From positions 239,320,001 through 239,384,000 of the forward strand of contig CM059425.1 of NCBI GenBank assembly GCA_030390025.1: a DNA stretch of 64,000 nt. The letters are read 5' to 3'. Position 1 is the stretch's first letter. Each line of letters starts with the position of its first letter. This document shows positions 1 to 52,690 of the stretch, piece by piece. The stretch is from Squalus acanthias (taxonomy: Eukaryota). The position numbers and the translations under genes were made by a program. The notes below the pieces were generated by a model. The model ran no database searches, was not told the DNA's origin, and worked only from the letters and a program-made list of their open reading frames with translations.

Positions 1-198
1 TGATGTCTGTGGGATAAATACTGGCCAGGACACCGGGGATAACTCCCCTGCTCTTCTTTGAAATAGTGCCATGGGATCTTTTGCATCCACCTGAGAGAGC
101 AGATGGGGTCTCTGTTTAACGTCTCATCCGAAAGACGGCACCTCAGACAGTGCAGCACTCCGTCATCACTGCACTGGAGTGTCCGCCTAGATTATTGT
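1..198 (-). mobile_element. DeuSINE (SacSINE1/AmnSINE1-like) fragment
   Basis: Reverse complement of the central domain of the SINE at 1245-1727 (gtgccatgggatctttt, tttaacgtctcatccgaaagacggcacc). Confidence 0.8.
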
Positions 199-299
199 AC
201 AGTTGCCAATTGCTGCTGCACGCCACAAATGAAATGCCATGTCGAAATCTCATCAATATGTTGCGAGAAATTATTGTAACACTGACAGTTTCCAATCAA

Positions 300-516
300 G
301 ATGTGGAGATGCCAGTGTTGGACTGGGGTGGACAAATGTGAGAAGTTGCACAACACCAGGTTATAGTCCAACAGTTTTATTTGAAATCACAAGCTTTCGG
401 AGCGCTGCTCCTTCTTCAGGTGAAGTGAAGAGATGTGACGAAGGAGCAGCGCTCCGAAAGCTTGTGATTTCAAATAAAACTGTTGGACTATAACCTGGTG
501 TTGCGCGACTTCTCAT
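300..516. mobile_element. Penelope-like pLTR-derived inverted-dimer insertion (family 1) with hammerhead motif
   Basis: 80-bp inverted arms 339-418/436-515; 12-bp direct repeat gtttccaatcaa at 288-299 and 517-528. Confidence 0.75.
387..423 (-). ncRNA. Minimal type I hammerhead ribozyme motif (predicted)
   Basis: Minus strand ucac-CUGAAGA-a-ggagc(agc)gcucc-GAA-AGCU-U/guga: 4-bp stem I, 5-bp stem II, palindromic AGCU in place of stem III; predicted cleavage between 391 and 390. Confidence 0.7.
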
Positions 517-1244
517 GTTTCCAATCAAAGTTACTGCGTGGAAAAAATGTGAACTCGGGAAATTGTTTGCGAGGTGGTGTGGCTGACCTCTTTCAAGTGG
601 GAGTCTGCATGTGGGGGGAGGGCGGGGAATGAGAATATAGTAGCCCATCTGACATGCTGCAGCAACACACAGTAGCAGTGCTAATTTGTGACTTAATGTA
701 CTTCATTGTCACGCATGTGGTTGTAGCTTGATAAATTTCAATGCACAACTCAAAGAATATGTGTACAGTTTCATTACTTGGGTGGGTGGTTTGGAATGTG
801 AAATCTAAATCAACCAATTTTGGCTGAAATGTTTCACTAACTTTACAACCCCACCCAATGTTTCCATCTTAATGTTCTTGTGCAATTGTCTTGAGGCGTT
901 GAATACCACTCCACTGCATTCGAGCTGCCGACTGATTCACCGTGCAGGCTTGACTAAAAAACTTGAAGTTTCAAGTAAGTTTTTCAAATCATCTAATAAT
1001 ATTCACGTGCTACTTTAAAGTTACCATCCAATACATGGTGACAAATTCACTGGCATTCTGCACTAAGCAAAAATGAAAGTTAATGTATAACTGGTAAAGG
1101 AATTTGCTGGTACTAATCATCGTCTCCTCCATGCTATGAATGTGTGTGGGGAAATGGAAATGTCACACTGATGCAATAGGGCTCAGGACACTCTATTAAG
1201 GCTGGTTCAAGGCCAGTACGTTAGGGTAAAGCTAAATCTACATT

Positions 1245-2171: not shown

Positions 2172-2301
2172 GTAAGGTTTGAAATATCAATTGCTTTTTA
2201 AAAAAAATTATCAAGTAATGATGCGGTTTGTTCACAAAAACAACTTCTGAGCATTGATAACTGTGCTTCTTGTTTGTTAGGACGAGTTGCTTCCAAACAA
2301 T

Positions 2302-2463
2302 AAAACAAAAGCAAGATCCTGCAGATGCTGGAAACCTGAGATTAAAAGAGAAAATGCTGGAAACACTCAGCAGGTCCGTTCTGATGAAACGTCATCAACC
2401 TGAACTGTGAACTCTTTCTCTCTACGGTGGCTGCCTGACCTGCTGAGTGTTTCCAGCATTTGC
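2302..2463. mobile_element. Penelope-like inverted insertion (family 2) with decayed hammerhead
   Basis: Perfect 25-bp arms 2352-2376/2437-2461; flanking 14-bp repeat tgctt(c/t)caaacaat at 2288-2301 and 2464-2477; homologous to 33875-33961. Confidence 0.7.
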
Positions 2464-2800
2464 TGCTTTCAAACAATGTTGATGTGGAGTTGCAAAGAGC
2501 TTGTGGTAGTTTTTTTTTAAAAGAAATGGACTGGAACTGCAAAAGAAAAACTTGATTTCCATTGCGTTAAATCCAACCGGTAGAAGCTATCCGAAAGAGA
2601 GGATTTAGAAGGATTTGCTTTTTTTCGTTGTGAATGCTTTTTAAAAAAAATAAAATAAAAAAAACTTAAGGAAATCTTTTCTGTGTGGTTACAGCATCTA
2701 TGCTAAGTTGTACAGAACATTTCATGAGGCGCTTTGAATGATTAGGTGGGATTTTTTTTTGAACGTCCTATTCCACCTGACTGCATAGGCTAATGGGGTT

Positions 2801-5236: not shown

Positions 5237-5374
5237 GCTACTCCATGTGGTAGCAAGTTCCACATTCTAACCACTAACTGGGTAAAGAAGTTTCTCCTGA
5301 ATTCCCTGTTGGATTTATTAGTGACTTTCTGATGTTGCATGCAGTCGTGCAGCATTTGGAATCATTGTCCAGCT

Positions 5375-6085
5375 CGGTGCGCTCTGTGGCGGAGCCGGGC
5401 TCGCGGGGCGCTGGGGAGGAGCCGGGCTCGCGGTGCGCTGGGGAGGAGCCGGGCTCGCGGCGCGCTGGGCAGGAGCCGGGCTCGCGGTGCGCTGGGCAGG
5501 AGCCGGGCGCGCTGGGCGCTGGGGAGGCGGCGGGCGCGTTGGGGAGGAGCCGGGCGCGCTGGGGAGGAGCCGGGCGCGCTGGGCGCTGGGGAGGAGCCGG
5601 GCGCGCTGGGCGCCGGGGAGGAGCCGGGCGCGCTGGGCGCTGGGGAGGCGGCGGGCGCGCTGGGGAGGAGCCGGGCGCGCTGGGGAGGCGCTGGGGAGGA
5701 GCCGGGCTCGCGGTGCGCTGGGGAGGAGCCGGGCTCGCGGTGCGCTGGGGAGGAGCCGGGCTCGCGGGGCGCTGGGGAGGAGCCGGGCGCGCTGGGCAGG
5801 AGCCGGCGCGCTGGCGCTGGGGAGGCGGCGGGCGCGTTGGGGAGGAGCCGGGCGCGCTGGGGAGGAGCCGGGCGCGCTGGGGAGGCGCTGGGGAGGGAGC
5901 CGGGCGCGCTGGGCAGGAGCCGGGCGCGCTGGCGCTGGGGAGGCGGCGGGCGCGCTGGGGAGGAGCCGGGCGCGCTGGGGAGGCGCTGGGGAGGAGCCGG
6001 GCGCGCTGGGGAGGAGCCGGGCGCGCTGGGGAGGAGCCGGGCTCGCTGGGGAGGAGCCGGGCTCGCTGGGCGCCGGGGAGGAGCT
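5375..6085. repeat. GC-rich, CpG-dense variable minisatellite
   Basis: About 30 shuffled units of GGGGAGGAGCCGGGCGCGCT, with variants GGGCTCGCGGTGCGCT, GGGCAGGAG and GGGGAGGCGGCGGGCGCG. Confidence 0.95.
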
Positions 6086-6309
6086 GGAAGTATTAAATCG
6101 ATTGGTTGAAGCAGACCAGTTGAGCAGGGGTGATTTTTTTGTTTAATTGTCTTTTTCCATAGGCTTGTCAACAACTTGTTGAGCGCATAGCATGTCTTGT
6201 CTCTTGACATGAAATGCCAATGTTCAACGTTGTATGCAAAATCTCAAAGAATTTTAAAAAGCATTATAACTAACTTGCCTGTAGTAATGCCACTGACAGC
6301 AGTTCTGAA

Positions 6310-18200: not shown

Positions 18201-18335
18201 TCTCCAATTTGAAACCTGTGTGTAATCCAACCCAAAAATAATGGCTTGCTGTAACTTTCGTTTTAAAAGAGGCTTTATAATGGGTTGTTGTATACTGAAT
18301 TCTTTAATTGCTTCTTATGATTTGATGTATTTCAG

Positions 18336-18450
18336 AGTGGTGAACATGCTCGGAGAAGTGTGCTGCTTAATAATGATGAGATGATGACATTTTACTATCA
18401 GGATGTAAAAACATTAAATGATGTGTTAAAAAGGGGTTTAATTGTATCTG
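18336..18450 (+). CDS. ACSL1: ACSL1 exon 3 (SGEHARRSVLLNNDEMMTFYYQDVKTLNDVLKRGLIVS)
   Basis: tttcag| ... G|gtaagt; 115 nt; homologous to recalled GSGGARRSALL...RGIQVS. Confidence 0.93.
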
Positions 18451-19124
18451 GTAAGTATTGCCTAATAAGCTGTTCTTTGGATGATAAAAGTGTAAGTCCA
18501 TATTTTTGCTGTAGAGATAGATATATCTATAGCAAAATTCAAATTATCAATAGTCATTTCCATCATGTCCAGTTTTACTATTGGGGGCATGCAGTGGAGG
18601 TGAAGCCTTTCTCCCAGGGAGATAGCAAAATTCATGGACAATCAGCTGTACCTGCAAGTAGCTGGCTACAGTGCACCACTGACTGAACCCTAGAAGGGGA
18701 ATGTTTGCCTGCCTTGATGGTGAGAACTATGAAGGAACCTGCAGTGAAGAATACATTTATATTTTTTGCAGCGTGGAAGGGAACGAACAAAATGCGCAGC
18801 CAATTTTTTTTTTTTTGCAACTGTAATTTGAGATGGTAAAGCTCTAAAATCTACCTTATTCCAAACTGGTGCTCTTGTTTTTGCACTAAATGTTTCTATT
18901 TATACCATAAAACGTTATGTTATCACTACTCCCCAGGTGCTCACCCACATTTGATTACTCTACCTGATCAATTTAATTACTCGTAAGTAGATCTAGCAAT
19001 GCCTCCCCCCTTGTAGGCATGCAAACATAGTGCTTGAATAAGGAGTTGTGTACACATTTTGATTTTTTTTTTCAATGTTTACTCCCTTCCCAATCAATGA
19101 GTGGGTAATTAAAATCTCTGCAAT

Positions 19125-33874: not shown

Positions 33875-34445
33875 AGAAAATGCTGGAAATACTCAGCAGG
33901 CAGCATCTGTGGAGAGAGAAACAGAGTTAACGTTTCAGGTCGAAGAATCTTCGTCAGAACTGGAAAAAGCTGGAGATGTAACAGGTTTTTAAGCAAGTGC
34001 AGGGGCAGGGAAAGGGGGGAGGGGAGGAAAGAACAATAGGGAAGGTCTGTGATAGGATGGAAGGCAGGAAAGATTAAGTGACAAACTGGATGATGGTGTA
34101 AGGCAAAAGGAGATGGTAATGGGACAAGTTAAGAAACAAAAGATGTCTCCTAGGTGAAGTGTAAATGGCACTGGCAGAAAGAAAGACAGCTGCCGTGTGA
34201 GAGAGAGAGAGAGCGAGAAAAAAAATTAATGGAAAAAAGATAGGGGCCGAGGTTATGGTCTGAAATTATTGAACTCTATGTTGAGTCCAGAAGGCTGTAA
34301 AGTGCCTAATCGAAAGATTTGCTGTTCCTCGAGCTTACATTGAGCTTCATTGGAACAGTGCAAGAGGCTGAGGACGGTGAGGTCTGAGTTGGGAGTGGAG
34401 CGGAGAATTAAAGTGACAGGCGACCGGAAGCTCGGGGTCACCCTT
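33875..34445 (-). mobile_element. Penelope-like element 3' fragment (GIY-YIG endonuclease C-terminus + pLTR)
   Basis: ORF 34253..34453 ends ...KLEEQQIFRLGTLQPSGLNIEFNNFRP, typical of a PLE ORF end; followed by a pyrimidine-rich UTR and a hammerhead motif. Confidence 0.78.
33925..33961 (-). ncRNA. Minimal hammerhead motif (family 2), stem II partly decayed
   Basis: aguu-CUGACGA-aga(uucuucga)ccu-GAA-ACGU-U/aacu. Confidence 0.55.
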
Positions 34446-34559
34446 ATGGACACCCTTAGTCTAAAGACCCTCGTATGGGTTCACAGAACTCATGGGACTC
34501 TTTGCTTCTGTGCTTGCAGTTGCATGTATGTAAAATTGAATTTCACCTTTCTCAGTGAG

Positions 34560-36084: not shown

Positions 36085-36160
36085 ATGCGGAGATTTTAGT
36101 AATTTTAGTAATTTTAAATAAATCTGTTGGACTATAACCTGGTGTTGTGTGACTTCTCAT
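36085..36160. mobile_element. PLE family-1 mini-insertion
   Basis: Starts (g)atgcggagat like 300 and 50880, ends ctgttggactataacctggtgttgtgtgacttctcat; TSD gtctaactatg at 36074-36084 and 36165-36175. Confidence 0.72.
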
Positions 36161-36554
36161 TTTCGTCTAACTATGTTTGTGATCAAATGAAGAGCTGCTC
36201 ATGACCAAAAATGAGTGTGGGGTTTTTAAAGCCATCTATCCAGATTTCTAAGTACTCAACCTAACATTTTCAGAAGTGTTATTTTTTTAAATTTGTTTTT
36301 ACAGTAATCTGAGATGTGACGTGGACTTTCAGACAGATTTTTATCCAGTAACTTTGTTCTCTGCGTCACTGGTCCTTGATCTTCCCTTAGCACCCCACTG
36401 CACTCCTAAGCTCCCACCTCAAACTCAATTGAACCATGGAATGGCTTCTGCCCTGTTGGTATGCAATAATACCTAAAGCATTCAATTTGTGTTCGACCCT
36501 CAGTGTACATATCTAAAAGTATTGCCAAATTTGTGGTGTCCCACAATGCACCAT

Positions 36555-45500: not shown

Positions 45501-46625
45501 GGTCTGGAGCCGAGTGGTCTTGGCGGAACCCGAACTGAGCATCGGTGAGCAGGTTATTGGTGAGTAAGTGCCGCTGGATAGCACTGTCGACGACACCTTC
45601 CATCACTTTGCTGATGATTGAGAGTAGACTGATGGGGCAGTAAATGGCCCGATTGGATTCCTCCTGCTTTTTGTGGACAGATGTGAGAAGTCGCACAACA
45701 CCAGGTAAATCATCCTTGACTACACCAGGTTATAGTCCAACAGCTTTATTTGAAATCACAAGCTTTCGGAGCGCTGCTCCTTCGTCAGATGTGGACAGGA
45801 CATACCTGTGCAGTTTTCCACATTGTTGGGTAGATGCCAGTGTTGTAGCTGTACTGGAACAGCTTAGCTAGTTCTGGAGCGCAAGTCTTCAGCATGATGA
45901 CCAGGATGTTGTCGGGGCCCATAGCCTTTGCTGTATCCAGTGCGCTCAGCCGTTTCTTAATGTCACATGGAGTGAATCAAATTGGATGAAGACTGGCTTC
46001 TGTAATGGTGGGGACCTTAGGAGGAGGCCGAGATGGATCATCCACTTGGCACTTCTGGCTGAAGATGGTTACAAACGCACTTGCATGGTGAGTCCCGCCA
46101 TCATTGAAGATGGGGATGTTCTTGGAGCCTCCTCCTCCCCCCGTTAGCTGTTTTATTGTCCACCACCATTCACGACTGGATGTGACAGGACTGCAGAGCT
46201 TTAATCTGATCTGTTGGTTGTGAGATCACTTAGCTCTGTCTATAGAATGCTGCTTCTGCTGTTTAGCATGCATATAGTCCTGTGTTGCAGCTTCCCCAGG
46301 TTGGCGCCTCATTTTTAGGTACGCCTGGTGCTGCTCCTGGCATGCTCTTCTACACTCCTCGTTGAACCAGGGTTGGTCCCCTGGCTTGATGGTAATGGTA
46401 GAGTGAGGGATATGCCGGGCCATGAGGTTACAGATTGTGGTGGAATACAATTCTGCTGCTGCTGATGGCCCACAGCGCTTCATGGATGCCCAGTTTTGAG
46501 CTGCTAGATCTACTCTGAATCTATCCCATTTTAGCACGGTGGTAGTGCCACACAGCACGATGGAGGGTGACCTCAGTGTGAAGAAGGGACTTCATCTCCA
46601 CAAGGACCGTGCGGGATTTCGTCTC
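42503..46625 (-). mobile_element. LINE-B (-) interrupted by CR1 (+, ~42901-43304), CR1 (+, ~43495-44864) and a PLE insertion (45681-45789)
   Basis: Host continuity against the 3915-5236 copy; ORFs 43248..43907, 43967..44530, 44542..44781 (CR1) and 45055..45405, 45406..45696, 46226..46558 (LINE-B). Confidence 0.88.
45681..45789 (-). mobile_element. PLE family-1 single-arm insertion with intact hammerhead core (45757-45791)
   Basis: 9-bp TSD tgtggacag at 45672-45680 and 45790-45798; minus strand cau-CUGACGA-a-ggagc(agc)gcucc-GAA-AGCU-U/gug. Confidence 0.75.
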
Positions 46626-48310: not shown

Positions 48311-48429
48311 TACAGCTAAACAGGAGGGAAATATTTGTGCTAAACTGAAGGTTTTTAATTTTGTGTGCCGGATCCATACGTTCATGTTCCTGATATTAAA
48401 TGCTTATGGCCACCAGAATTTGTGAAGAA

Positions 48430-48590
48430 AAAACAGAAAATGCTGGAAATGCACAGCAGCTTCAATCAGCATCTGAAAAGAGATAAGACCAGTTAATGTT
48501 TGAGGTATAACCCATTTTCCGAACCCGAAAAGTTAACCCGTCTCTTCCCTAGCAGACGCAGACTAACCCGTTGTGCATTTCCAGCGATAG
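48430..48590. mobile_element. Old PLE family-2 inverted relic
   Basis: Arms gctggaaatgcacagc / gttgtgcatttccagc; similar to 2302-2463 and 33875-33935; no ribozyme core left. Confidence 0.55.
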
Positions 48591-50419: not shown

Positions 50420-52690
50420 TCATAACACAAGAACATAAGACATAGGAGCAGGAGTAGGTCATTTGGCCCGTTGAGCCTGCTCCACCATTCAATAAGATCA
50501 TGGCTGATCTGATCTTGGCCTCAACTCCACTTCCCTGCCCGCTCCCCATAACCCTTGACTCCCTTATCGTTCAAAAATCTGTCTATCTCCACCTTAAATA
50601 TATTCAATGACCCAGCCTCCACAGCACTCTGGGGAAGAGAATTCCAAAGATTCATGACCCTCTGAGAGAAGAAATTCCTCCTCATTTCCGATTTAAATGG
50701 GTGCCCCCTTATTCTGAAATGATGCCCCCTAGTTCTAGATTCCCCCACGAGGGGAAACATCCTCTCTGCATCTACCCTGTCAAGCCCCTTCAGAATCTTA
50801 TATGTTTCAATACGATCCCCTCTCATTCTTCTAAAGTCCAATGAGTATAGGCCCAACCTGCTCAACCTTTCTTCATAAGGTGGAGATGCCGGTGTTGGAC
50901 TGGGGTGGACAAATGTGAGAAGTCGCACAACACCAGATTATAGTCCAACAGCTTTATTTGAAATCACTGATTTCAAATAAAGCTGTTGGACTATAACCTG
51001 GTGTTGTGCGACTTCTCACATTTCTTCATAAGATAACTCCTTCATCTCCGGAATCAACCTCGTGAACCTTCTCTGAACTGCCTCCAATGCAAGTATATCC
51101 TTCCTTAAATAAGGAGACCAAAACTGTGTGCAGTACTCCAGGTGTGGTCTCACCAACACCCTGTACAGTTGTAACAGGACTTCCCTACTTTTATACTCCA
51201 TTCCCTTTGCAATAAAGGCCAACACTCCATTTGCCTTCCTAATTACTTGCTGTACCTGTATGCTAACTTTTTGTGATTCATGTTCAAGGACCCCCAGATC
51301 CCTCTGTACCTCAGCATTTTGTAATGTCTCCCCATTTAAAAAATAATTTGCTTTTTTATTTTTCCTACCAAAGTGGATAACCTTGCATTTTCCCACATTA
51401 AACTCCATCTGCCAGATTTTTGCCCACTCACTTAGCCTATCTATATCCCTTTGGAGATTTATTGCGTCCTCCACACAATTTGCTTTCCCACCCATATTTG
51501 TATCATCAGCAATTTTGGTTACATTACATTCGGTTCCTTCATACAAGTCATTAATATAGATTGTAAGTAGTTGAGGCCCCAGCACTGATCCCTGTGGCAC
51601 CCCACTAGTTACAGTTTGCCAACCTGAAAATGACCCATTTATCCAACTCTCTGTTTTCTGTTAGTTAGCCAATCCTCTATCCATGCTAATATATTACCCC
51701 CAACCCCGTGAGCTCTTATCTTATGTAGTAACCTTTTATGTGGCACCTTATTGAATGCCTTCTGGAAATACAAATACACGACATCTACTGGTTCCCCTTT
51801 ATCCACCCTGCTCATTACATCCTCGAAGAACTCCAGCAAATTTGTCAAACGTGATTTCCCTTTCATAAAACCATGCTGACTCTGCTTGACTATATTATGA
51901 TTTTCTAAATGTCCTGCTACCACTTCCTTAATGATGGACTCTAGCATTTTCCCAATGACAGATGTTAGGCTAACTGGTCGATAGTTGCCTACTTTCTGTC
52001 TTCCTCCTTTTCTTAAATAGGGGCGAATTGTTTGCGGTTTTCCAGTCCGCTGGGACCTCTCCAGAATCCAGGGAATTTTGGTACATTACAACCAATGCAT
52101 CCACTATCTCTGCAGCCACCTCTTTTAAGACTCTTGGATGCAGGCCATCGGGTCCAGGGGACTTGTCCACCTTTTAGTCCCATTAGTTTGCCTAGTACTT
52201 TCTTTCTAGTGATAGTGATTGTTTTAAGTTCCCCCCCCCCCCCCCCCCCCCACCCCAATAGGCCCTTGATTATCCATTATTGGGATGCTTTTAGTGTCTT
52301 CTACCGTGAAGACGATACAAAATATTTGTTCAAAGTCTCCGCCATTTCCCTGTTTCCCATTATTAATTCCCCAGACTCATCCTCTAGGGGGACCAGCGTT
52401 TACTTTAGCTACTCTCTTCCTTTTTATATACCTGTAGAAGCTCTTACTGTCTTTTTATATTTCTTGCTAGCTTACTCTCATAAGCTATATTCTCTCTCTC
52501 TCTCATTTTTTTAGTCGTCCTTTGCTGGTTTTTAAAAATTTCGCAATCCTCTGGCCTTCCACTATTCTTCGCAACATTGTATGCTTTTGTTTTCAATTTG
52601 ATACCATCCTTTACTTCCTTAGTTAGCCACGGATGGTTCATCCTTCTCTTAGAGTCTTTATTTCTCACTGGAATATATCTTTGCTGAAAG
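50420..52690 (-). mobile_element. CR1 LINE, ~2.2 kb, 5'-truncated
   Basis: ORFs 50521..50928, 51016..51600, 51639..51947, 51970..52170, 52444..52668. Confidence 0.93.
50880..51020. mobile_element. PLE family-1 near-perfect palindromic insertion within CR1
   Basis: 56-bp arms 50911-50966/50968-51023 (1 mismatch) around c50967; 12-bp TSD tttcttcataag at 50868-50879 and 51021-51032. Confidence 0.82.

What the first reader, a model, noticed from the sequence alone, without database searches (positions are those of the whole stretch)
288..528. 217-bp hairpin insertion carrying a complete minimal hammerhead ribozyme
Seen: 80-bp inverted arms with a 17-nt loop and a 12-bp TSD. The minus strand of the left arm reads ucac CUGAAGA a ggagc-agc-gcucc GAA AGCU U^guga. 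That gives both core boxes, stems I and II, an extra A after A9 and a palindromic AGCU instead of stem III. The right arm begins inside the core (gUGACGA). Established: Penelope-like elements carry minimal type I hammerheads in their pLTRs that cleave as dimers through a palindromic helix III. Inference: this is a non-coding, ribozyme-bearing mobile unit mobilised in trans by a PLE.
Basis: partly seen in the sequence, partly recalled or inferred. Interest (0 to 1): 0.72.

Follow-up and report, generated by a model that had tools for sequence, protein, structure and literature searches.

The report
Truncated fold-back Penelope retroelement end
The hairpin, its target duplication and its small hammerhead ribozyme motif are real, but they look like an ordinary dead, doubly truncated end-piece left by a very abundant Penelope-like jumping gene in a shark-type genome, not a new mobile unit.

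Summary
Observation confirmed: a 217-bp insert (300-516), a 12-bp target duplication, 81-bp inverted arms and a complete minimal type I hammerhead on the minus strand (C3 at 419). It fits the published Penelope-like element (PLE) hammerhead consensus and is absent from 300 shuffles. The 17-nt 'loop' is simply more family sequence. Tail plus a head-to-head, tail-less, 5'-truncated copy plus a target duplication is the published PLE insertion architecture. Three more copies lie in the window. All three two-armed copies have different junctions. Public contigs of three organisms show a very abundant family; two 3' end clusters about 35 nt apart were listed in two of the three. So the hairpin is most likely built anew at each integration and is not a unit that moves. 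In a transcript of the whole insert the hairpin blocks the ribozyme fold (47.7 kcal/mol). Not shown: cleavage, covariation, or a link to an RT + GIY-YIG ORF. One lead remains: two of four copies have arms starting at the predicted cut site. The scan reported the same kind of element before on other DNA.

The parts
288..299 (+). Left copy of the 12-bp target-site duplication
300..337 (-). 38-nt 3' 'tail', present on one arm only; family 3' ends cluster at 296-302 and 329-339
   Evidence: table 7
338..418 (-). Left arm, the part paired with the right arm (3' terminal module / pseudo-LTR end of the family)
387..423 (-). Complete minimal type I hammerhead motif (C3 = 419, N7 = 415, G12 = 398, U17 = 391; predicted cut 391/390)
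   Evidence: compared with the consensus in PMC4209133 Fig. S3
419..435 (-). 17-nt 'loop': family sequence just upstream of U4, kept only on the left arm (includes C3 and the 5' strand of stem I)
   Evidence: records 7, 13, 16, 24
436..516 (+). Inverted, tail-less, more deeply 5'-truncated arm starting at U4; incomplete ribozyme
517..528 (+). Right copy of the 12-bp target-site duplication
50880..51020 (.). Copy B, 141 bp: tail arm (equivalent to 303-390) plus inverted tail-less arm (from 389); both arms begin within 1 nt of the predicted cut site; 12-bp duplication; sits in a CR1-like LINE whose empty site is reconstructed without gaps
45681..45789 (-). Copy C, 109 bp: single tail-less arm with a full core (C3 = 45788), a small internal rearrangement and a 9-bp duplication
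36085..36164 (.). Copy D, 80 bp: 10-nt tail stub, short filler, inverted tail-less arm starting at about the predicted cut site; 11-bp duplication; more diverged (87%)

Best explanation
A dead-on-arrival insertion of the 3' terminal module of a very abundant endonuclease-positive Penelope-like retroelement. Shown in the sequence: target duplication, tail arm, head-to-head tail-less arm, minimal hammerhead. Inferred mechanism: the element's GIY-YIG endonuclease makes a staggered cut 9-12 nt wide. Each of the two 3'-OH ends primes reverse transcription on the terminal RNA module, one at the outer start site (giving the tail arm) and one about 35 nt further in (giving the tail-less arm). Both cDNAs stop early, here after 136 and 81 nt, and are joined head to head. 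The hairpin is therefore made afresh at each integration. The ribozyme is a passenger: in the parent element it probably cleaves slowly as a dimer or with protein help, but at this locus it is locked in the hairpin and decays neutrally. Confidence 0.8 is for 'truncated PLE end, not a unit'. The two-primer step itself I put at about 0.55.
For: (1) The motif meets all four features that PMC4209133 lists for PLE minimal hammerheads except covariation, and fits its consensus line. Stem I (UCAC/GUGA) equals that of the lamprey Poseidon entry, and the GCU-U end equals the painted-turtle entry. (2) An optional 30-40-nt tail, an adjacent inverted 5'-truncated copy, head-to-head orientation and 8-10-bp duplications are described as typical PLE structure (PMC8557442; PMC3846280). 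(3) 3 of 3 two-armed copies in the window have one tail arm and one tail-less arm, with different junctions; 4 of 4 copies have 9-12-bp duplications. (4) Removing copy B and one duplication restores an ungapped 132-nt match (89%) to another CR1-like copy, so that duplication is genuine. (5) In public contigs, all 14 listed loose ends on the tail side fall in two clusters, 9 at 296-302 and 5 at 329-339, with heterogeneous flanks (agreement 0.37-0.47). A purified anole PLE protein cut and extended both DNA strands and started reverse transcription at two sites that bound the tail (PMC11167929). (6) 10606, 7672, 1351 and 3987 contigs of 4 runs from 3 organisms were laid on the stretch, with summed depth 2-6 x 10^5 times that of the unique flank in the two runs that covered it (not a copy number). 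(7) Forcing the ribozyme fold in the whole-insert transcript costs 47.7 kcal/mol. (8) G12 and C11.1, a CpG pair, are mutated in about 5-10% of depth in the DNA-type runs, as neutral decay would give. (9) A second, unrelated hammerhead-bearing family in the window shows the same tail-plus-inverted-arm layout at 2302-2469.
Against: No RT or GIY-YIG ORF was linked to this family: no genome is held, pattern scans of three collections found 0 loci, and protein searches gave only two antisense read-throughs without PLE domains. Rfam hammerhead models did not match. The double-hammerhead dimer scores -20.7 kcal/mol against -30.5 for the best two-strand fold and -23.2 for two monomers, so the energy model does not favour it. 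Covariation could not be tested: one search lists no variant below 337 or above 403 within the element, although window copies differ at 314 and 415. Only 24 of 340 loose-end rows were shown. The four targets in the window are not clearly AT-rich (0.52-0.68 against 0.56). PMC3846280 explains inverted junctions by self-priming on an antisense template instead.
Confidence: 0.8

Rival explanations
1. The template is a short non-coding RNA (hammerhead to tail, about 140 nt) from a non-autonomous PLE derivative, copied in trans. The hairpin still forms at integration, but the source is a mini-element and not the 3' end of a full-length RNA.
For: 5' ends crowd just upstream of the core: 5 of 10 listed loose-end rows on that side lie at 421-433 and 3 of 3 opposite-strand joints have one side at 424-430. 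No family-1 copy in the window extends beyond 435. pLTRs alone can mobilise other sequence in trans (PMC3846280), and vertebrate retrozymes derive from pLTRs (bioRxiv 2026.07.22.740005).
Against: The stretch laid ended at 435 and 126 contigs of run X1 ran over its ends, so longer copies exist or were invisible. A transcript start inside the upstream pLTR of an autonomous tandem element would give the same 5' ends. PLE copies are routinely heavily 5'-truncated.
Confidence: 0.12
2. One reading: the 217-bp hairpin is a fixed, ribozyme-bearing unit that is transcribed and re-inserted whole by a PLE.
For: Clean 12-bp duplication around the whole hairpin, young arms (77 of 81 complementary), intact core on one arm.
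Against: 3 of 3 two-armed copies in the window and 3 of 3 listed opposite-strand joints have different junctions. The ribozyme fold is blocked in the hairpin. The right arm lacks C3. Copies A and B carry different family alleles at 375, each shared by its own two arms, so they came from different sources.
Confidence: 0.04
3. A foldback or MITE-type DNA transposon, or a local inverted duplication after insertion, that happens to contain a hammerhead-like motif.
For: Long inverted repeat with a target duplication; no Rfam hammerhead match.
Against: The inverted repeat does not reach the left end (38-nt tail outside it), duplications vary from 9 to 12 bp, arms vary in length, a one-armed copy has its own duplication, and the duplication encloses both arms, so they arrived together.
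Confidence: 0.04

Closest known systems
Insertion units of endonuclease-positive Penelope-like elements: pLTR, optional 30-40-nt tail, adjacent inverted 5'-truncated copy (PMC8557442 passages; PMC3846280 passages and Discussion; PMC2377424 passages)
   Same: Head-to-head inverted copies, tail on one arm only, target duplication of similar length (8-10 bp in the rotifer examples, 9-12 bp here), heavy 5' truncation, hammerhead near the 3' end.
   Different: Here both copies are cut down to under 140 nt, so no ORF or second direct pLTR remains. The parent ORF was not seen, so the clade (Poseidon, Neptune) is unassigned.
Minimal hammerheads of metazoan PLEs (Cervera and De la Pena 2014, PMC4209133; main text parts 1-2 of 4 and supplement parts 1-2 of 3 read)
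   Same: CUGANGA core, extra base between 9 and 10.1, G10.1-C11.1, palindrome in place of helix III, short helix I, U-rich 5' and AU-rich 3' flanks. Same stem I as the lamprey Poseidon entry, same palindrome and U17 as the turtle entry.
   Different: No shark entry in that alignment (0 hits for shark, Callorhinchus, Squalus or Leucoraja in the one supplement file searched). Stem II and loop sequence are family-specific. Cleavage untested.
Poseidon element of the green anole, PAc (Frangieh et al. 2024, PMC11167929; parts 1-2 of 4 read)
   Same: Two reverse-transcription start sites bounding the tail; both DNA strands cut and extended; hammerhead upstream of the start sites.
   Different: In PAc the ORF starts within the hammerhead. 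Here all three sense frames of the module contain stops (inferred from the sequence; one frame shown), and weak loose-end consensus hints at an ATG right after the tail.
Non-LTR retrozymes (bioRxiv 10.64898/2026.07.22.740005, parts 1-3 of 5 read)
   Same: Non-coding, pLTR-related, type I hammerhead, found in one cartilaginous fish genome in that study.
   Different: Retrozymes are head-to-tail tandem repeats with a full ribozyme in each unit. This insert is head-to-head, with one complete and one broken motif.

Membership tests
PLE minimal type I hammerhead | Core boxes CUGANGA and GAAA with N-U-H triplet (H not G) | tested here: met
   family variant at H17 is U to C (29% and 30% of depth in X1 and X5), no G17 row listed
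PLE minimal type I hammerhead | Extra nucleotide between 9 and 10.1; G10.1-C11.1 pair; palindromic 15.2-16.2 | tested here: met
   against the features listed
PLE minimal type I hammerhead | Helix I and helix II present | tested here: met
   4-bp and 5-bp stems; predicted pair probability in the left arm alone 0.65 for stem II but only 0.02 for stem I
PLE minimal type I hammerhead | Covariation or compensatory change across family copies | tested here: inconclusive
   one search lists no variants above 403, so the partner of the stem I change at 388 (18% of X1 depth) cannot be seen; mixed loose-end consensus at 402-403 suggests loop II length variants
PLE minimal type I hammerhead | Self-cleavage as a dimer or with protein help | not testable with these tools
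   needs an in vitro assay; the energy model does not favour the double hammerhead
Rfam hammerhead families | Match to a curated covariance model | tested here: not met
Endonuclease-positive PLE insertion | Optional 30-40-nt 3' tail on one end | tested here: met
   38 nt in this copy; two end clusters about 35 nt apart
Endonuclease-positive PLE insertion | Adjacent inverted 5'-truncated copy, head to head, variable junction | tested here: met
   3 of 4 window copies; 3 listed opposite-strand joints
Endonuclease-positive PLE insertion | Target duplication of variable length | tested here: met
   12, 12, 9 and 11 bp; empty-site test positive for 1 of 4 copies, the other 3 had no second copy of the target in the window
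Endonuclease-positive PLE insertion | AT-rich target preference | tested here: inconclusive
   0.52-0.68 AT against 0.56 for the window; loose-end consensus strings look AT-rich (not counted)
Endonuclease-positive PLE insertion | Parent ORF with telomerase-like RT and GIY-YIG endonuclease | tested here: inconclusive
   no linked ORF found; no genome held
Non-LTR retrozyme | Head-to-tail tandem units, each with a complete hammerhead | tested here: not met
MITE / foldback DNA transposon | Inverted repeats at both termini and a fixed duplication length | tested here: not met
Fixed non-autonomous hairpin unit | Same junction and length in independent insertions | tested here: not met
   0 of 2 other two-armed window copies share the junction; genome-wide count of this junction was not possible (stretch ended at 435)

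The most novel reading that the evidence does not exclude
A share of the insertions record ribozyme cleavage in vivo. Two terminal RNAs, paired through the AGCU palindrome, cleave and are then copied together by a dimeric PLE protein at both ends of the staggered cut, so both cDNAs run off at the cut site. Copy B (arms beginning at 390 and 389, a fold-back with a 1-nt loop) and copy D (arm beginning at about 390) would be such products, and one public contig has a joint at 390 (table 5c). Under uniform 5' ends, 2 of 4 copies ending at 389-391 has p about 0.015 (post hoc, and D's start is blurred by a short duplication). Against: the copy in question ends at 435 and 418, none of 10 listed loose-end rows on that side is at 389-391, and in the anole element ribozyme mutants did not affect insertion and no RNA reads ended at the cut site. 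If true, a family this abundant would make the role of PLE hammerheads testable from genome sequence alone.
Probability: 0.2. Interest if true: 0.6.

Novelty: new member of a known kind. Interest (0 to 1): 0.2.

Why it matters
As it stands, little: it adds a shark-type family to a known pairing of PLEs and minimal hammerheads, and it explains such hairpins as integration by-products. The useful side is that the family is abundant and its insertions are tiny, so both ends and the junction of each event can be read at once. A census could decide two open points: how the inverted copy and the one-sided tail are made, and whether the hammerhead ever cuts the RNA that is copied. Insertions of this shape in introns would also give about 80-bp double-stranded RNA when transcribed (inference, not tested).

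Tried and rejected
No whole genome held. Exact 22-nt pattern scans of viral, prokaryote-genome and metagenome contigs: 0 loci each. Rfam: nothing at gathering score; 9 of 11 weak matches were microRNA hairpin models far below threshold, taken as generic hairpin matches. Antisense 44-aa frame of the arm as protein query: no hit among longer proteins; 16 hits in the 50% library, of which 2 are real antisense read-throughs (73-75% identity) and 14 were set aside as chance matches, mostly to long proteins with several matched stretches (3 of the 14 were scanned in Pfam); neither real hit has a PLE domain. The sense frame of the module could not be searched as a protein, so a link through the parent ORF's N-terminus stays open. 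A recalled GIY-YIG motif pattern found nothing in six frames. The ORF end next to the second hammerhead family (34253-34480, minus) gave no Pfam, PDB, protein-database or contig hit and only sub-threshold GIY-YIG leads in the Atlas (0.83). Sequencing runs: no RNA holder listed on record, which says nothing about expression; contigs cannot show RNA ends. Empty site in organism C: one 840-nt contig follows the left flank over 200-281 and then leaves it, which fits absence of the insert but stops 18 nt short of the junction, so it is not counted as shown. Lunse et al. (PMC5785218) is not held; I saw only its citation in a review. PMC5785220 was a wrong identifier. bioRxiv supplements are closed; those of the retrozyme preprint may list this family. 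Repbase and Dfam could not be searched and may well hold it. Paper searches that bear on 'not in print'; none listed a paper on this shark family, and the term 'twin priming' had 0 occurrences in the PLE-focused papers listed.

Full report
Setting. The window is repeat-rich vertebrate-type DNA with many LINE reverse-transcriptase fragments (3 of 12 ORFs scanned hit Pfam RVT_1; I call them CR1-like from recall). A predicted whale shark protein carries a 75%-identical antisense read-through of the arm studied here (P0013), so the host is probably a cartilaginous fish. No genome is held for the window.

A 12-bp exact direct repeat at 288-299 and 517-528 encloses 217 bp. The arms 338-418 and 436-516 are complementary at 77 of 81 positions. 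The minus strand of the left arm gives both core boxes, a 4-bp stem I, a 5-bp stem II, an extra A after A9, the palindrome AGCU and U17. My descriptor found this site and one sister copy at 45788, and nothing in 300 shuffles. Rfam models did not recognise it, and the isolated motif folds no better than shuffles, so the case for a ribozyme rests on the motif and its context. The motif fits the consensus line of Fig. S3 in PMC4209133. It shares stem I with the lamprey Poseidon entry and the palindrome and U17 with the turtle entry (features listed).

The left arm continues for 38 nt (337-300) beyond the end of the right arm, and for 17 nt (419-435) beyond its start. Both extensions are family sequence. 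The insert is therefore two unequal, 5'-truncated copies of one module joined head to head, one with a tail and one without.

Other copies. The window holds three more. B (50880-51020) has a tail arm and a tail-less arm that begin at the equivalents of 390 and 389. D (36085-36164) has a 10-nt tail stub and a tail-less arm from about 390. C (45681-45789) is a single tail-less arm. Duplications are 12, 11 and 9 bp. Removing B and one duplication restores an ungapped 132-nt match to another LINE copy in the window; the other three targets had no second copy to test against. Each two-armed copy has its own junction. The two arms of A share T at family-polymorphic site 375 and the two arms of B share C, so A and B came from different sources.

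Public contigs. I laid 4 of 24 listed runs on 200-435. Between 1351 and 10606 contigs per run matched, from three organisms, with summed depth about five orders of magnitude above the unique flank where the flank was covered (the tool warns this is not a copy number). Of 340 loose-end rows, 24 were shown. All 14 on the tail side fall at 296-302 (9 rows) or 329-339 (5 rows, from 3 of the 4 runs), with unrelated flanks. The first cluster is just the family's edge; the second is the informative one. The 10 rows on the other side lie at 398-403 (5 rows, whose loose letters resemble continued family sequence, probably loop II variants) and 421-433 (5 rows). Three opposite-strand joints were listed (335/426, 376/424, 393/430), one skip (320 to 377), and one further joint from 390 to 348. 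U17 varies to C in about 30% of depth in organism A, which the cleavage rule allows (rule recalled, and H in the consensus). G12 and C11.1 show CpG-type change in 5-10% of depth in the DNA-type runs. No variant was listed at 392-397, but most other positions had none either, and positions above 403 appear to be blind, so selective conservation is not shown.

Comparison with PLE biology. PMC8557442 (passages) describes 5' truncation, an adjacent inverted 5'-truncated copy and a 30-40-bp tail often at one end only. PMC3846280 (passages and Discussion) gives examples with a 31-bp tail, a shorter inverted pLTR, 8-10-bp duplications and mostly head-to-head orientation. PMC11167929 (parts 1-2 of 4) shows in vitro that a PLE protein cuts and extends both strands and starts at two sites that bound the tail, that the hammerhead cleaves only with protein present, and that cleavage is not needed for insertion.

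Mechanism. Read from each duplication inward, both arms are the antisense of the module: the top strand starts at the tail end, the bottom strand at the inner site. That is what two target-primed cDNAs would give, one from each end of a staggered cut, each stopping early and then joined. This step is my inference. Snap-back or antisense self-priming, as proposed in PMC3846280, remains possible; it explains less well why the second arm stops at the same inner site where single-armed copy C ends. At this locus the ribozyme should be inert. In a minus-strand transcript of the whole insert, stems I and II have predicted probability 0 and forcing them costs 47.7 kcal/mol; the plus strand carries only the arm that lacks C3. 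For two free left-arm fragments, the double-hammerhead fold (-20.7) scores worse than the best alternative (-30.5), which fits the low activity reported for such motifs but is no support for cleavage.

What is missing. No RT + GIY-YIG ORF was tied to this family. A second hammerhead family in the window, with no sequence similarity to the first, has one copy with the same fold-back layout (2302-2469) and one longer copy (33875 to about 34440) whose upstream part ends in a broken ORF. I recall that ORF end as the C-terminus of a PLE endonuclease, but searches gave only sub-threshold leads.

Earlier notes of this scan (unchecked AI notes) reached the same reading on other DNA. One reports 5' ends just upstream of the hammerhead and not at the cut site; one reports an intact PLE with paired hammerheads in this genome. 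My reading was recorded before I saw them (note, statement). They are not counted as evidence.

Verdict. A correct catch of a known kind: the truncated end of a Penelope-like element with its minimal hammerhead, folded back by the way it integrated. Interest 0.2. The one lead worth a census is the subset of arms that begin at the predicted cut site.

Noticed in passing
window 2294-2477: Fold-back micro-insertion of a second hammerhead-bearing family: 8-bp duplication, one arm with an extra stretch of about 40 nt, inverted arm starting at a degenerate core; same layout as the finding but no sequence similarity.
   Followed up: partly
window 33875 to about 34480, minus: Longer copy of the second family: minimal hammerhead at 33957 (4-bp stem I, ACGU palindrome, damaged stem II), pyrimidine-rich upstream region and a broken ORF end that I recall as a PLE GIY-YIG C-terminus; only sub-threshold search support.
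   Followed up: partly
window about 48428-48590: Another apparent inverted pair with similarity to the second family's 3' part, seen by eye and partly.
   Followed up: no
window 18321-18686, plus: The first ~35 residues of this frame recall an early exon of vertebrate long-chain acyl-CoA synthetase genes (from memory); Pfam, NCBIfam and PDB gave no meaningful hit.
   Followed up: partly
window 12-195 and 1333-1536: Two oppositely oriented copies of a SINE-like repeat flank the finding about 1.2 kb apart (88-94% complementary), with a 17-nt tandem duplication at 1359-1392.
   Followed up: no
window about 5370-6090: GC-rich tandem array that leaves all six frames open for 258-293 codons.
   Followed up: no
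window 45681-45789: Copy C has a short non-family insert and a repeated few bases inside the arm, and its target resembles the family sequence next to the inner start site, which hints at microhomology-guided priming.
   Followed up: no
window 296-302 (family edge, table 7): Weak loose-end consensus in three runs ends in letters that read as an ATG directly after the tail on the sense strand, which may be the start of the parent ORF in tandem copies (agreement only about 0.4-0.5).
   Followed up: partly
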